Positions 55,052 to 60,444 of a stretch of DNA of 64,000 bases are shown here, in pieces (within the stretch, counting starts at the first letter, position 1; every line of letters begins with the position of its first letter). The DNA comes from the human T2T-CHM13v2.0 reference genome, Homo sapiens. The notes under the pieces are model-generated. The model had not been told where the DNA came from and searched no databases. It worked only from the letters and a program-made list of their open reading frames with translations. The stretch is taken from NCBI RefSeq assembly GCF_009914755.1, contig NC_060947.1; one strand, 5' to 3'. Both the position numbers and the translations under genes were made by a program.

Positions 55052-55392
55052 ATTTTATACCTTAAATTTCTATATCACTAAGATGCCAATGTTTTAATGA
55101 AAAAGAAAATAGAGTATAAAATTCAGTAGCACCTATTTGTCTCAACTACAAGTACAGTGAGTATTAAACAACAATGATAATATAGGAACGAAAACAGAAC
55201 TTGTAGATTTGCCCAAATTAACTCTGTTTCTCCAAATTTGAGGTGTATGGCAAGTTGAACGTTTGTTCTCTCTGCAATTGTTAGTTACATTATCAGCTTA
55301 ACACTTTCAAACACTGCGGGAGGCATTTCTCTGTTCACACAGACTTAAGCACATATATACTGAGCTATAAATAGTTTGCCTTCCACGTTTGG
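55052..55392. repeat. 341-bp direct repeat, copy 1
   Basis: Gap-free alignment to 60104-60444. Confidence 0.95.
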
Positions 55393-55821
55393 ATTGAACA
55401 AAGGGGGGCGAACGCAGGAATAAAAGACAAGAGGCAAAAGAGTATATTTGGAAGAAGGGGTCAGGGGGAACCTTGCCTCTAGTGGACAAGGGCCCTGGTT
55501 TACACAGCCCTCCATATTTATTAGGCAAAAGAGATAGCGAAAAAGCGGGGTTGGGGGCGGTGATTGTCGGGTAATTGTCAGTCAGCTGTTTGGTTCACAG
55601 CAGGCTTTGAACTACATGCTTTGAACAATAGGCGCTAATTTTCTCCGTAGATAACTTCAAGGAGCCATCAGGGAATGATGTCCCTCAGCAAACGTTTTGG
55701 TGGCAGGACAATGTGAGTTTGCCCACATCCTGCATTCATGATAAACAGTTTGCTGTTTGATCATATAGCCTCCAGCGAAATGCTGAGCTGGTCACGTCCC
55801 ACGGGCCTTCGGCTCCCTGCA
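55389..55821 (-). repeat. LTR3 3' LTR, terminal 13 nt or so of U5 missing
   Basis: Aligns to 59672-60103; lacks the TGCCGCTGACCTA end. Confidence 0.9.
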
Positions 55822-58800
55822 TATCCCCCTTTTTGTTTTATGTATTAATTGAAAGAATGTAAGTCCAGGCTGGGCAGCTCTTACTATCCAATTGGTGGTC
55901 CATCGAATTTTACAGAAAATGTAGCATTAGAGCTGTGTCGTGACTCCTATCGGCCCTCTCTCCATCTTTGCACTCAGGCTCAGCTGGCTCATGGCTCGTA
56001 CCGGAGGGACCGGGCTCATGGTTGGCCACCATAGGTTCCTCCAGTCTCCCGTTCCATGGTCGCACGCACAGTTTGTCCATCTCCTGTAAACACACAAGCA
56101 TACCATCTTCCCCATATCAGTAAGTCCACCACACCTTTCCATTGTCCTTCTTTTGGGGATTTCCATAACACTTTCGGATAAACTTTCCTCTTTTCCTCTA
56201 ACGCTTGCCAGTGTCTTTTTGCTGGAGTCTTAACCATTCATACCAGGAGTCAAAAAATTTACAGTAAATAAGGCTAAATGTAGTTTTGATTGAGGTGGTA
56301 GTTGGCCTCGTATACCCCCTTTTGTCTTTTCAACATGTGTTGTAATGTTTGATGTGCCTGCTCTATAATGCCTTGTCCTCTAGGATTATAAGGAATTCCT
56401 GTTTTATGGGTTATAGCCCAAAGCTGTAAGAAATTTTGAAAAGCATGACGAGTATAAGCGGGTCCACTGTTAGTTTTTAATTGTTTAGGTATCCCCATAT
56501 GAGCAAATGATGACAGACAATGTTGCTGTACATGACCAGCTGTCTCACCTATTTGGCATGTAGCATGCAGCATATGAGAATAAGTGTCTATAGTCACATG
56601 AACATAGCTAAGCTTGCTAAAGGTTGCTATGTGTGTAACATCCATTTGCCAAATTTCATTTGGAGCCAAACCTCATGGGTTACAGCCTTCTACAGGTGTG
56701 GCTCCAGGGACATGCTGGCAAATAGGACAGGCTTGTATTATAGCCCTAGCTTGTCGGCAAGATAAATGGAACATGCGAGTAAGGGCGGAAGTATTTTGGT
56801 ACAGAAGTGCATGAGACACTTGAGCTTGCTGAAACACAGAACCAATTAGTTTTTCTGCTTTCTCATTACTTAGAGATAGTGGCCCAGGAAGTTGTGTATG
56901 AGAGCGAATATGAGAAACATGAAAAGGAGCTGTATGAGCGCAAATAACTTATTGAAGTCTTAAAAATAAATTAAGCAGTTCTGGGTCTAGTGTACTTTTA
57001 ATTGTAGCAGTTTTTATGCAACTGGCTACATTTATAACCCAAGCTGAATCACAGTGTTGATAGGATCTGAAGCTATGAGCTGTAAAACCTGAATGACTGC
57101 AATTAGCTTTAAGCTTTGAGCTGAAACCCCAGAGGTCATTATTGTTTTTGGACCTTTTTGGAATAACAAATACCGGTGAATTTCAGGGGATAACTGACTT
57201 TTCTATATGTTCTGCATTTAATTGCTCTTTTACCAACAGATGAAGTTGATCTAGCTTCTTATGTGTTAGGGGCCATTGATCCACCCACACAGGTTTGTCA
57301 CTAAGCGATTCTAATGGTAAGGCAGTGGGTGGAGGAGAAATATCATGACCCCCGTCAGAAATCCTGACGTTCTAGCCCTTCTTTATTTGTTTTTCCAGTT
57401 ACTGATATCAGGTTAGGATTTCATTGTAGAAATTTTCTTAAACCTTTTTCCCTTTGATATCCCATGTCTTTCAACATTTTAAATCCTGGATTATTAAAGT
57501 TTTCATTTGTATGTCTCATATCCCATGCTGTAAGTCTCGACCCCATAAATTGATAGCTATATTTGCAACATAAGGCTGAAAAGTATATGACTGTCCATCC
57601 GGACCAATACAAGATAAAATCTCAGCGCTTTGTTGAACACTTTGAGCTGTTTACTCCCACTAGGGACGTAGAAGTTAATTGTAAGGGCCAGGATAGGGGC
57701 CAGTTGTCTTTAGATATTACTGATACATCAGCTCTCGTATTCATAAGCCCATAAAATTTCTTTTCTTTAATTTGTACTACACAGGTGGGTCTATTAGAGG
57801 CAATGGGTCAGGATAGATCGATTTCCCATATAGTTGTGCTCCCAAACCCTTTATTTCCTCGTTTCTCCTTTTGTTGAGAAGGGTGTAATTTGCAGGGAAT
57901 AAGCAATAATTGAGAAATATATTCTCCTGGTTCAAAACCCCAAAGATTTTGTGACATTAAAACTACTTGAATTTCTACTTCATAATAGGAGTCAGTCACT
58001 TCTGGGACTATAGTGATGCCTTGCAAATTAAGACGGCTTTTGCCTAAAATTAGTCCCATGTATCCTGTTGGTAAAGGTCCCCAAATACCAGTGGTAACTT
58101 TGATAGGTTTGTCTCCACCAACTAACATGATTTTTTCTCTGGTGGGTAGATTTAATTCTGCACTTCCTGGTGTTTCTGGGGTGAGGGAATCAATGGGCCT
58201 CCGGGAACCCATCCCTGAAACGGGGTTGAGGTCTGTACTGGGAAGGCCCTCATTGTTTGTGGGGCCCGGGTTCAGGCCCCCGTCTCACTTCCCGGCAGGG
58301 GGGTGCCATTTTGATGAAATTTTGAGCAGCACTGATTAGTCCAGTGATTTCCTTTGTTACAGCAAGGACAAAGTCCTGGCGTTTTTTCCGCTGGAGTCTG
58401 TTGGGGGGGCGGTGGACAGCATTGTAAGGTCCTTTCTGTCCTGAGATCTGGCAGCATTGCTTTTTAAAATGTCCAGTTTTTCCACAATTATAACATTTTC
58501 CCATTTTAGGGTTTGACCCTTGGCTTCTTTTAGATTTGTCAACTGCTAAATTAGCCATTGCTTGCGCTAACATTGCAGAGCGATGAAGCTCAGTTCCTAC
58601 ATCCTGACAAGCTCTTGAGAAAATTTCCCAAGTTTTTTGTACACCTCACCGGTGCCAGTGCACATTTGCATTCCCAAAAGCTAGAGTTAAGGTTTTTGCC
58701 AATTTAAATTCCATGTCAGATATACACTCACAGACAAGCAAGTTCGCACCAAGTGTTTCACATCAAAGGGCAAAAAATGCATAGCACCAAACACAGATTC

Positions 58801-59635
58801 TAGCAATCCTAAGGTGAATGGGCTTTGTACGCCATTATTTACCACACTCAGTTTTAATTCCTTTAACAACTTAAACTCTAGTGTGTGTTCATGAATAACC
58901 TGCTGTGGATTATTTGGATCAGGCCTTACAGAAATAGGAAAAGCGCAAGGTCCTAAGGGCTCTCCAGCTATGGCAGCAGAGTGTAAAATTCTTTGTATTG
59001 GGGTTTGTATTTCTGCTACTGAAGGAGGTGGTACAGATGTTTCTGCAATTGGAGGAAGTGGTATAGGCCAATTTTTATCTCCCTCTCCTGTTTTTTATTT
59101 TCAGTTGGAGCTGTGGGTGGGACAACAGATTCTTTCAGATTTTTAGACTTAGCCTGCTGTCCAGCAGAATAATGAGGAGATAATGGCACAAGTACAGTAT
59201 GAACTAAACTCCAAGTGGAGAAAACAGAAGAATCAACTTTAAGACCTTTTGGATGAGCCTGTTTTAATCCTTCTCCTGCCCTATCCCAATTTTCCACATC
59301 GAGAGTGCCTGCCTGTGGAAACCGTGGGTTATGTGTAATAACCTTTTGTGGCTTCTGCAGGAGGTTAGTGTCTGCGAATTAACCTGAGCTCTAGATTGTC
59401 TCAGCAGAACTTTAAGCAACTGCACATAATGTTTTTCTTTAATAGACGAATTCTTCCCCTTGTTACCCTGATTCAGAAAACTTCCCGTTCCCAGTACTTC
59501 TTTAAAGCACTGCTCCCATTACCTCTTTAGGGCACCGACCTTATATCCACTGCCGGCAGACTCGTCCTGGGGTCCCCGTTTGCCTTGTCAAATTCAGTTC
59601 CTCTGCTCCAGCAGACCTTCGTTCACGTCCTCGAA

Positions 59636-59655
59636 GTCCCTGTTCTGGGGCGCCA
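59636..59655 (-). promoter_or_regulatory. Primer binding site, tRNA-Lys
   Basis: Minus TGGCGCCCCAGAACAGGGAC versus canonical TGGCGCCCGAACAGGGAC (2-nt insertion). Confidence 0.9.
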
Positions 59656-59658
59656 CTA

Positions 59659-60103
59659 TGCCGCTGACCTATTGGACTGAACAAAGGGGGGCAAACACGG
59701 GAATAAGACAAGAGACAAAAGAGTATATTTGGAAGAAGGGGTCCGGGGTACCTTGCCTCTAGTGGACAAGGGCTCTGAGCTTTACACAACCCTCTGTATT
59801 TATTAGGCAAAAGAGATAGCGAGAAATGGGGGTGGGGGGGTGATTTTCAGGTAATTGTCCATCGGCTGTTTGGTTCACAGCAGGCTTTCAAGACTGCATC
59901 CTTTGAACAATAGGCGCTGATTTTCTCAGTAGGTAACTTCAAGGAGCCCAACGCCGGGGAGTGATGTCCCTCAGCAAACCTTTTGGTGGCAGGGCAGTGT
60001 GAGTTTGCCCACATCCTGCATTCATGATAAACTGTTTTTTGATCATATAGCCTCCAGCAGAATGCTGAGTTGGTCACATCCCACAGGCCTTCGGCTCCCT
60101 GCA
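59659..60103 (-). repeat. LTR3 5' LTR, complete TG...CA
   Basis: Minus start TGCAGGGAGCCGAAGGCC, end CAGCGGCA, followed by the PBS. Confidence 0.92.
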
Positions 60104-60444
60104 ATTGTATACCTTAAATTTCTGTATCACTAAGATGCCAATGTTTTAGTGAAAAAGAAAATAGAGTGTAAAATTCAATATCACCTATTTGTCTCAACTA
60201 CAAGTACAGTGAGTATTAAACAACAATGACAATATAGAAACAAAAACAGAACTTGTAGATTTGCCCAAATTAACTCTCTTTCTCCAAATTTGAGGTGTAT
60301 GGCAAGTTGAATGTTTGTTCTTTCAGCAATTGTTAGTTGCATTATCAGCTTAACACTTTCAAACAGTGCAGGAGGCATTTCTCCGTTCACATAGACTTAA
60401 GTACATATATACTGGGCTGTAAATAGTTTGCCTTCCATGTTTGG
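60104..60444. repeat. 341-bp direct repeat, copy 2
   Basis: Gap-free alignment to 55052-55392. Confidence 0.95.

What the first reader, a model, noticed from the sequence alone, without database searches (positions are those of the whole stretch)
55052..60444. HML-6 provirus with a 341-bp target duplication and one clipped LTR end: fossil of a one-ended integration
Seen: 55052-55392 and 60104-60444 are gap-free direct repeats (about 22 mismatches counted by eye, roughly 6.5%) bracketing the provirus. The U3 end at 60103 is a precise TG terminus. The U5 end of the 3' LTR lacks about 13 nt including the terminal CA and joins the host through TTGG microhomology (55389-55392). Known: betaretroviral integrases make TSDs of about 6 bp; when integrase joins only one end (mutant-end ASLV, HIV under sub-optimal strand-transfer inhibitor), host repair joins the other, often with large duplications. 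Inference: a germline-fixed example of that pathway. The repeat pair gives a clock independent of LTR divergence and a substrate for scarless excision.
Basis: partly seen in the sequence, partly recalled or inferred. Interest (0 to 1): 0.8.

Follow-up and report, generated by a model that had tools for sequence, protein, structure and literature searches.

The report
Provirus with 341-bp flanking duplication
An old, broken endogenous retrovirus on the human X chromosome is flanked by a 341-base copy of its target instead of the usual 6 bases and has one clipped end, the scar expected when the viral enzyme joined only one end and the cell joined the other; similar cases are already in print.

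Summary
Window 55052-55392 and 60104-60444 are gap-free direct repeats (22/341 mismatches) that abut a minus-strand betaretrovirus-like provirus (55393-60103). The flanks are a 5'-truncated processed SUV39H2 pseudogene. Its chr10 parent and a chr6 retrocopy each carry the segment once and uninterrupted, so this is a true target duplication. The U3 end (60103) is an exact TG terminus. The 3' LTR lacks the last 13 nt, including the terminal CA, and joins the host across a 4-nt TTGG overlap. In 17 related insertions the target duplication is about 6 bp (16 clear, 1 unclear).

Best reading (about 0.68): integrase joined the U3 end only, and host repair joined the U5 end, as shown experimentally for ASLV and HIV vectors. 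Timing is unproven: repeat and LTR divergences are compatible (non-CpG 5.1% vs 6.9%), but no primate orthologues could be examined.

It is not a new kind. Long duplications (13-450 bp) flanking HERV-K(HML-2) insertions are published and have been attributed to inefficient integration. I confirmed that the published 21q21.1 provirus has the same topology. This locus is a new, older and well-controlled member. I found no description of it, but the main HML-6 catalogue could not be read.

The parts
53064..54715 (-). Distal 3'UTR part of a processed SUV39H2 pseudogene, with a short A-run remnant (seen as T7 on the + strand at 53064-53070) at its 3' end
   Evidence: blastn to the C10 parent: 53070-53766 at 87% and 53757-54721 at 83%. 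Sequence read.
54716..55020 (+). Alu element with an A/T-rich tail, inserted into the pseudogene 31 nt from repeat copy A. It is flanked by a duplication of about 13 bp. It is absent from the parent.
   Evidence: The parent alignment overlaps by about 14 nt on the two sides of the Alu (C10 14917059-14917072).
55021..55051 (-). Outer flank X: pseudogene sequence that is contiguous with the repeat segment in the parent
   Evidence: window 55021-55385 aligns as one block to C10 14917072-14916706.
55052..55392 (.). Repeat copy A of the duplicated target (341 bp), abutting the clipped U5 end
55389..55392 (.). TTGG microhomology shared by the end of the host repeat and the LTR at the host-made junction
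   Evidence: Chance of 4 nt or more is 0.016.
55393..55821 (-). 3' LTR lacking the terminal 13 nt of U5, including the CA
   Evidence: alignment to the 5' LTR. (relatives of the same subfamily end ...GGCA followed by a 6-bp duplication, e.g. L010).
55822..59658 (-). Internal proviral region. Polypurine tract at 55822-55835. Integrase: C-terminal domain 56016-56237, core 56274-56672, Zn domain 56673-56948. Weak G-patch 57421-57621. Protease 57622-57807. dUTPase 57808-58284. Gag zinc knuckle 58250-58645, p24 58687-59094, p10 59016-59378. Lys-type primer binding site 59636-59655. All frames are broken. No RT or env domain was found.
   Evidence: 14 of the 22 minus-strand stop-to-stop ORFs of 50 aa or more were scanned against Pfam. 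Sequence. The tRNA-Lys assignment of the primer binding site is recalled, not tested.
59659..60103 (-). 5' LTR, 445 nt, complete, TG...CA. Its U3 terminus at 60103 is joined directly to repeat copy B.
60104..60444 (.). Repeat copy B of the duplicated target, contiguous with outer flank Y as in the parent
   Evidence: window 60103-60772 aligns as one block to C10 14917038-14916368.
60445..60854 (-). Outer flank Y. Proximal 3'UTR, stop codon and the last 57 codons of the SUV39H2 pseudogene (ORF 60664-60837). An intron-less exon junction lies near 60769-60772. The retrocopy is 5'-truncated at about 60854.
   Evidence: the parent alignment jumps from 14916368 to 14915228 with no gap in the window.. 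(an unrelated high-copy repeat starts near 60977).

Best explanation
A betaretrovirus-like (HERV-K-type) viral DNA entered a neutral SUV39H2 processed pseudogene by an aberrant, one-ended integration.

Shown: integrase processed the U3 end and joined it normally. The viral strand ending CA-3' is joined to the + strand at 60103/60104. The U5 end was not joined by integrase. It lost 13 nt, including the CA, and is joined 341 bp further along the target across a 4-nt TTGG overlap. The polarity is the same as in a normal staggered cut, so 341 bp of target are present on both sides instead of 6.

Inferred route: either the host 3'-OH left at the integrase nick was extended with strand displacement and then annealed to the frayed U5 end, or, as the Hughes laboratory proposes, the free viral 3' end was trimmed, annealed at a short homology, primed synthesis on nearby host DNA and was resolved by recombination. 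The product was fixed in the germ line. The two repeat copies then diverged neutrally and symmetrically.
For: 1. The duplication is real and was created at this locus. The C10 parent and the C6 retrocopy read X-R-Y with R once.
2. The U3 end is exact: TG, with no extra bases and at most 1 nt of ambiguity.
3. The U5 end is clipped by 13 nt relative to its own 5' LTR and to subfamily relatives that end ...GGCA next to a 6-bp duplication.
4. The 4-nt microhomology has a chance probability of 0.016.
5. The family normally makes 6-bp duplications. Among 15 solo LTRs, 9 have an identical 6-mer on both sides, 5 match at 5 of 6, and 1 is unclear. In 2 of 2 proviruses with both LTR loci fetched the 6-mers are identical.
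6. PMC5041404 (sections 10 and 12 read) describes the same triad for ASLV and HIV vectors: one normal end, the other end often truncated, host duplications of hundreds to thousands of bp, and usually a short homology at the aberrant junction.
7. Rooting on the parent gives 9 changes on copy A, 11 on copy B and 2 ambiguous, spread evenly with a longest identical run of 48 nt. This is one duplication followed by independent drift.
8. Repeat and LTR divergences are compatible. All sites: 22/341 vs 41/424, p=0.11. Non-CpG sites: 17/331 vs 27/391, p=0.35.
9. The published HML-2 provirus at 21q21.1 has the same topology in this genome.
Against: - Timing is not shown. The repeat pair is nominally younger than the LTR pair: the non-CpG ratio is 0.74 (95% interval 0.38-1.42) and the all-site ratio is 0.67 (0.38-1.15).
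- The LTR pair has 7 indel events and the repeat pair has none (Fisher p=0.02). Part of this may reflect the homopolymer runs and CpG content of the LTR (GC 49% vs 33%).
- Wild-type vectors gave 0 aberrant integrations in 99 and 0 in 85 proviruses (PMC5041404, section 10), so the event is rare per integration.
- No orthologous primate locus could be examined.
- A normal integration followed by two template switches, or by an unequal non-homologous exchange with an empty allele, would leave the same sequence.
Confidence: 0.68

Rival explanations
1. Normal two-ended integration with a 6-bp duplication, followed later by a rearrangement that duplicated the 341 bp and clipped U5. One route is replication template switching: a jump across the provirus using the 6-bp duplication, then a return at TTGG. 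Another is a non-homologous unequal exchange between a filled and an empty X chromosome in a heterozygous female.
For: The final sequence would be identical. The repeat pair is nominally less diverged than the LTR pair (ratio 0.67-0.74) and has 0 indels against 7. The authors of PMC5488345 (section 13) also regard later rearrangement as possible for the HML-2 cases.
Against: It needs two rare events, or two breakpoints, that happen to reproduce exactly the product of a pathway demonstrated experimentally. The divergence difference is not significant (p=0.11 and 0.35). At 21q21.1 the LTR pair likewise shows more differences than the duplication (3/257, 2 of them at CpG, vs 0/450), so LTR pairs seem simply to change faster.
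Confidence: 0.2
2. Integrase-independent capture of a linear viral DNA at a chromosomal break or collapsed fork, with both ends joined by host repair and the exact U3 end arising by chance.
For: The U5 junction is clearly host-made. There is a 1-nt ambiguity at the U3 junction (55051/60103).
Against: The U3 end stops exactly at the TG that follows the polypurine tract in the 3' LTR and in relatives, with the bases beyond it removed, as integrase processing does. End-joining would rarely trim to that exact base.
Confidence: 0.05
3. Pseudo-duplication: the 341-bp segment was already tandemly duplicated in the X-linked pseudogene and the provirus landed between the copies. This is the pseudo-TSD model of PMC5488345.
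For: The parent and the C6 copy only prove single copy before retroposition, not just before integration.
Against: The provirus would have had to hit the exact copy boundary (about 1 position in 341), and it shows no 6-bp duplication of its own. Copy A runs straight into the clipped LTR and copy B starts straight after the U3 terminus.
Confidence: 0.03
4. Both ends were joined by integrase in two uncoupled half-site reactions 341 bp apart. A later slippage deletion between two TTGG repeats then removed 17 nt, including the terminal CA.
For: Half-site products dominate many in vitro integration reactions (PMC8742673, abstract only, seen in the listing). TTGG would flank such a deletion.
Against: It needs an extra, very specific deletion. 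Nothing in the sequence calls for it.
Confidence: 0.02

Closest known systems
HERV-K(HML-2) provirus at 21q21.1 (K60/ERVK-23) with a 450-bp flanking duplication (PMC5488345 Table 2 and section 13; PMC4422153 Discussion passage)
   Same: Checked in this genome. It is a minus-strand provirus whose 5' LTR U3 end is an exact TG terminus abutting duplicate copy B. [quoted passage not shown] The duplication (450 bp) has the same polarity as here.
   Different: - It belongs to another HERV-K group and is much younger: 450/450 identical there against 319/341 here.
- The truncation removes most of the 3' LTR (only 257 nt remain) rather than 13 nt.
- The host-made junction has 0 nt of microhomology rather than 4 nt.
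Other HML-2 insertions with long target duplications (13-250 bp), such as the 7p21.2 solo LTR (250 bp) and the 6p25.2 truncated provirus (111 bp) (PMC5488345, abstract and sections 11-13 read)
   Same: Long direct repeats of host DNA flank a HERV-K insertion. The pre-integration allele is single copy where it was determined. Recombination between the long repeats is discussed as a way back to the empty site.
   Different: Those are mostly solo LTRs, where the state of the two viral ends at integration is less informative. That paper does not discuss integrase or a mechanism (0 hits for these terms). Here the empty site is inferred from the parent gene and a second retrocopy, not from an allele or an orthologue.
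Experimental aberrant integrations: ASLV vectors with one mutated end, and HIV-1 vectors under sub-optimal strand-transfer inhibitor or with resistant integrase (PMC5041404, sections 10 and 12 read; the earlier ASLV and raltegravir papers were not held)
   Same: One end and its junction are normal. The other end is often truncated. The host duplication is hundreds to thousands of bp instead of 4-6. There is usually a short homology at the aberrant junction.
   Different: Those are somatic events in cultured cells under a deliberate handicap. Here the event is natural, germline and fixed, and the reason the U5 end failed is unknown.

Membership tests
One-ended (integrase plus host repair) retroviral integration product | One viral end intact to the conserved terminal dinucleotide and joined directly to host DNA | tested here: met
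   The 5' LTR starts TGCAGGG at 60103, as the 3' LTR does right after the polypurine tract and as relatives do.
One-ended (integrase plus host repair) retroviral integration product | Other viral end abnormal (truncated or with added sequence) | tested here: met
   The 3' LTR lacks the last 13 nt, including the CA, relative to its own 5' LTR and to subfamily relatives.
One-ended (integrase plus host repair) retroviral integration product | Host duplication (or deletion) far longer than the family's canonical target duplication | tested here: met
   341 bp here. The segment is single copy in the C10 parent and the C6 retrocopy. The family norm is 6 bp.
One-ended (integrase plus host repair) retroviral integration product | Short homology at the host-made junction (usual, not obligatory) | tested here: met
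   TTGG, 4 nt, chance 0.016.
One-ended (integrase plus host repair) retroviral integration product | The structure arose at the moment of integration | tested here: inconclusive
   Non-CpG divergence is 5.1% for the repeat pair and 6.9% for the LTR pair, ratio 0.74 (0.38-1.42). Indel events are 0 vs 7. Orthologues are needed.
HERV-K(HML-6) / LTR3 group | Betaretrovirus-like gene order with a dUTPase and G-patch in pro, and a Lys-type primer binding site | tested here: met
   Pfam finds gag p10, p24 and CCHC, dUTPase, RVP, and integrase Zn, core and C-terminal domains, in order. The G-patch scores 18.5 bits, below the cut-off of 22. A TGGCGCC... site lies 3 nt after the 5' LTR. Its tRNA-Lys assignment is recalled.
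HERV-K(HML-6) / LTR3 group | Assignment to the named reference (Dfam/Repbase LTR3 and its internal sequence, or the HML-6 RT clade) | not testable with these tools
   No repeat library is held, and the RT region that defines the HML groups is absent from this copy. The family has at least 327 LTR candidates and 266 internal candidates in the genome, 40 scored in each search. One relative lies in distal C19, but it could not be tied to the named 19q13.43 HML-6 locus of PMC9046263.
Processed pseudogene of SUV39H2 | Matches the parent mRNA without its intron, and encodes the parent's protein | tested here: met
   The window runs through a junction where the parent has an 1140-bp gap. A 57-aa ORF matches the C-terminus of SUV39H2 chains 6p0r/2r3a at 54 of 57 residues, E=1.2e-32.
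Processed pseudogene of SUV39H2 | Poly(A) tail and flanking target duplication of the retrocopy | tested here: inconclusive
   Only a 7-nt A-run remains at 53064-53070. The retrocopy's own target duplication was not sought.

The most novel reading that the evidence does not exclude
Natural one-ended integrations are a regular minor outcome of retroviral endogenisation, and they are asymmetric. In both proviruses examined here (this locus and HML-2 21q21.1) integrase joined the U3 end of the 5' LTR, and the right-hand (3' LTR/U5) end was damaged. This would fit viral DNAs whose right end, the last part finished by plus-strand synthesis, was incomplete or degraded. If so, this roughly 341-bp scar, dated by two independent internal clocks and rooted by a parent gene, would be the oldest resolved example. 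A genome-wide search for the triad (exact end, clipped end, long duplication) would then measure how often, and by which repair route, host cells complete failed integrations in the germ line.
Probability: 0.25. Interest if true: 0.55.

Novelty: new member of a known kind. Interest (0 to 1): 0.35.

Why it matters
The locus is a clean natural record of a pathway otherwise known mainly from handicapped vectors in culture: the cell finishes an integration that integrase left half done.

Three things make it well controlled. Both junctions are readable. The target is neutral DNA. The empty-site sequence is supplied twice over, by a parent gene and by a second retrocopy.

It also gives a paired clock. 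Here, and at 21q21.1, the LTR pair has changed more than the adjacent host duplicate, much of the excess being at CpG sites. This is a caution for LTR-based dating of proviruses.

Long flanking repeats also allow a recombination that removes the provirus and restores the empty site, which matters when presence or absence of an ERV is used as a phylogenetic character. None of this is new in principle.

Tried and rejected
1. Possible mis-set LTR end. In one search most relatives aligned to the 5' LTR only up to position 430-438 of 445. This raised the possibility that the true LTR ends at ...TCCA, which would make the 3' LTR complete and both ends integrase-made. Reading the ends removed it. Relatives fall into two terminal variants (...GGTTACA and ...GGCA). 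The variant to which this provirus belongs ends ...GGCA directly before a 6-bp duplication (L010 exact; L016 5 of 6).

2. L1-mediated or template-switch origin, with the provirus copied as part of the pseudogene RNA. Rejected: the parent has no provirus; both LTRs carry U3-R-U5; and the left boundary falls on the exact U3 terminus.

3. Gene conversion between the repeat copies. No tract was seen. The longest identical run is 48 nt, and a run at least that long occurs in 60% of random placements.

4. Naming the family. The main HML-6 catalogue (J Virol 2019) was not held under its DOI or under a guessed PMC id. A relative in distal C19 could not be tied to the named 19q13.43 locus. The label stays untested.

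5. Papers not held: the 2006 ASLV paper and the 2013 raltegravir paper. I rely on their summary in PMC5041404.

7. Literature on this locus. Searches for HML-6 + provirus + Xp11.22, HML-6 + LTR3 + target site duplication + proviruses and SUV39H2 + processed pseudogene + Xp11 found no description of it. Supplements were not opened.

8. The koala retrovirus paper reports only 4-bp duplications and does not bear on this.

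
Full report
OBSERVATION

The repeat is real. The repeat finder reports a direct repeat at spacing 5052. A base-by-base comparison shows 55052-55392 and 60104-60444 to be gap-free with 22 mismatches in 341 (17 transitions, 5 at CpG sites). Similarity ends abruptly on both sides, apart from one ambiguous base at 55051/60103. 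In the whole genome the segment occurs at four places only: the two copies here, one on C10 and one on C6.

WHAT LIES BETWEEN THE COPIES

A provirus sits on the minus strand.

- The 5' LTR is 59659-60103 (445 nt) and the 3' LTR is 55393-55821.
- They align at 41 mismatches in 424 shared positions, with 7 indel events.
- Both LTRs start TGCAGGGAGCC. In the 3' LTR this follows the polypurine tract, so 60103 is the exact U3 terminus.
- A TGGCGCC... primer binding site lies 3 nt after the 5' LTR's terminal CA.

Pfam scanning covered 14 of the 22 minus-strand stop-to-stop ORFs of 50 aa or more. It finds, in order: gag p10, p24 and a zinc knuckle, a dUTPase, the retroviral protease, a sub-threshold G-patch, and the integrase Zn, core and C-terminal domains. 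It finds no reverse transcriptase and no env. This is a betaretrovirus-like, HERV-K-type architecture, heavily deleted and with every frame broken. The label HML-6 could not be tested: no repeat library is available and the RT region that defines the HML groups is missing.

THE CLIPPED END

The 3' LTR stops 13 nt short of the 5' LTR's terminal ...GGCA. I doubted this at first, because most genomic relatives aligned to the 5' LTR only up to position 430-438 of 445. That could have meant the true LTR end lies earlier and that the 3' LTR is complete.

Reading the ends of the 28 other LTR loci settled it. The family has two terminal variants. The variant this provirus belongs to ends ...GGCA immediately before the target duplication (L010, with an identical 6-mer on both sides). 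The 13 nt, including the CA that integrase needs, are therefore truly missing.

The junction carries TTGG (55389-55392). This is at once the last four bases of the host repeat (copy B and the parent read ...GTTTGG|TCTC) and the four LTR bases before the missing 13. Bases on either side do not match, so the overlap is 4 nt. The chance of 4 nt or more at a random junction is 0.016.

THE TARGET

The flanks are a processed pseudogene of SUV39H2 on the minus strand.

- blastn to C10 gives collinear blocks for window 53070-54721, 55021-55385, 60103-60772 and 60769-60854. The last step crosses a 1140-bp gap in the parent with no gap in the window, that is, a spliced-out intron.
- A 57-codon ORF (60664-60837) matches the C-terminus of the SUV39H2 chains 6p0r/2r3a at 54 of 57 residues.
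- The retrocopy is 5'-truncated near 60854. A high-copy interspersed repeat starts near 60977.
- An Alu (54716-55020) entered the pseudogene later, 31 nt from copy A.

The decisive point is this. In the parent, and in an independent, older retrocopy on C6, outer flank X, the 341-bp segment and outer flank Y are contiguous, and the segment is present once. The duplication was therefore made at this locus, and its two boundaries coincide exactly with the two ends of the provirus.

FAMILY CONTROL

Of the 28 other LTR loci fetched, I classed 15 as solo LTRs, 9 as 5' LTRs and 4 as 3' LTRs.

- Among the 15 solos, 9 have an identical 6-mer on both sides, 5 match at 5 of 6, and 1 (L025) is unclear.
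- The two proviruses for which both LTR loci were fetched have identical 6-mers.
- For L030 and L032 the start was set by eye.

The family's integrase therefore makes 6-bp duplications. The X-linked provirus is the outlier among the 18 insertions looked at.

TIMING

Rooting the 22 differences on the parent gives 9 changes on copy A, 11 on copy B and 2 ambiguous. There are also 22 changes shared by both copies. The differences are evenly spread. This is what one duplication followed by independent neutral drift gives.

| Measure | Repeat pair | LTR pair | Test |
|---|---|---|---|
| All sites | 6.5% (22/341) | 9.7% (41/424) | p=0.11 |
| Non-CpG sites | 5.1% (17/331) | 6.9% (27/391) | p=0.35 |
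| Rate ratio, repeat/LTR, non-CpG | 0.74 (0.38-1.42) | | |
| Indel events | 0 | 7 | p=0.02 |

The clocks are thus compatible with a duplication made at integration, but they cannot exclude a later one. The nominal excess on the LTR side counts against my reading and is reported as such. The same direction of excess appears at the young 21q21.1 locus (3/257 in the LTR, 2 of them at CpG, against 0/450 in the duplicate). This suggests that LTR pairs simply change faster than AT-rich flanks.

MECHANISM

PMC5041404 (sections 10 and 12 read) summarises the experimental pathway. When integrase can insert only one end, host enzymes insert the other. The good end and its junction are normal. The aberrant end is often truncated. 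Most commonly the host DNA is duplicated over hundreds or thousands of bp. The aberrant junction usually has a short homology. Wild-type vectors gave 0 aberrant proviruses in 99 and 0 in 85.

All four structural features are met here. The polarity also fits. The viral strand ending CA-3' is joined to the + strand at the left edge of the segment. The clipped end is joined 341 bp further on, as in a normal staggered cut but 341 bp wide instead of 6. How the host completed the job is inferred, not shown. The two candidates are extension of the nicked host 3'-OH with strand displacement followed by microhomology annealing, and priming by the trimmed viral 3' end followed by recombination.

RIVALS

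- A normal integration followed by a later double template switch, or by an unequal non-homologous exchange with an empty allele, would leave the same sequence. I give it 0.2.
- Integrase-independent capture: 0.05.
- A pre-existing tandem duplication hit exactly at its boundary: 0.03.
- Two uncoupled integrase half-reactions followed by a 17-nt slippage deletion: 0.02.
- An origin through L1 or template switching is excluded by the parent lacking a provirus and by the complete LTR structure.

COMPARISON WITH WHAT IS KNOWN

The kind is in print.

- PMC4422153 (Discussion passage read) lists human-specific HML-2 loci with long direct repeats, among them a 3'-truncated provirus at 21q21.1 with a 450-bp duplication. 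It attributes them to inefficient integration, citing the ASLV and raltegravir work.
- PMC5488345 (abstract and sections 11-13 read) finds 8 flanking duplications longer than 10 bp (13-450 bp) among 622 LTR5_Hs sites. It proves single-copy pre-integration alleles for two of them. It discusses both a pseudo-duplication model and recombination between the long repeats. It does not discuss integrase or a mechanism.

I located the 21q21.1 provirus in this genome through an env-family search and read its junctions. It has a 450/450 identical duplication, an exact TG at the U3 end of the 5' LTR, a 3' LTR cut off after 257 nt, and no microhomology. The topology is the same as here.

VERDICT

However, this is a new member of a known kind, not a new kind. 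What it adds:

- an older example in another HERV-K-type group;
- both junctions resolved;
- a built-in empty-site control and outgroup;
- a second internal clock.

I found no description of this particular locus. The main HML-6 catalogue could not be read, and no supplements were opened.

Noticed in passing
window 53064-60854 (minus strand): A 5'-truncated processed pseudogene of SUV39H2 that the hub's gene table does not list. It keeps an open 57-codon C-terminal piece (60664-60837), 54 of 57 residues identical to SUV39H2 structures, and is split by an Alu and the provirus.
   Followed up: yes
L004/L006: G000 C6 69098948-69099732: A second, more diverged SUV39H2 retrocopy on chromosome 6 (80-82% identity to the X copy). 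It also lacks the intron and has the 341-bp segment in single copy.
   Followed up: partly
window about 57147 and about 58693 (provirus interior): Relative to its genomic relatives, this provirus lacks about 303 bp in gag; every scored relative covering that point has the extra piece. It also lacks 0.9-2.3 kb where RT should be. Three relatives (C11 62.04 Mb, C23 56.40 Mb, C5 24.76 Mb) align straight through the RT gap. The RT-less form may therefore be a deletion variant that spread with help in trans.
   Followed up: partly
loci L010-L038 (LTR ends): The LTR family has two U5-terminal variants...GGTTACA in most copies and a shorter ...GGCA in the subgroup containing this provirus (L010, L015, L016, L025). 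One solo LTR (L021) lacks its last 4 nt yet has a perfect 6-bp duplication. One (L025) has no clear duplication.
   Followed up: partly
window 54716-55020: An Alu with an A/T-rich tail and a target duplication of about 13 bp, inserted in the pseudogene 31 nt from repeat copy A. It is absent from the C10 parent, which instead carries its own Alu elsewhere in the UTR (near C10 14917996-14918280).
   Followed up: partly
window 59640-60174: The RefSeq 'enhancer' feature in the hub's table covers the primer binding site, the whole 5' LTR and the first 71 nt of repeat copy B. The annotated element is essentially the proviral LTR.
   Followed up: no
L039-L041: G000 C21 16920521-16929724: At the published HML-2 21q21.1 provirus the LTR pair has 3 differences in 257 nt (2 at CpG), while the 450-bp host duplicate has none. 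This is the same direction of excess as at the X locus and is a caution for LTR-based dating.
   Followed up: partly
window 60977-61500: A high-copy interspersed repeat (2037 first-look candidates, 80-87% identity) starts about 120 nt beyond the 5' end of the pseudogene. Its family was not identified.
   Followed up: no
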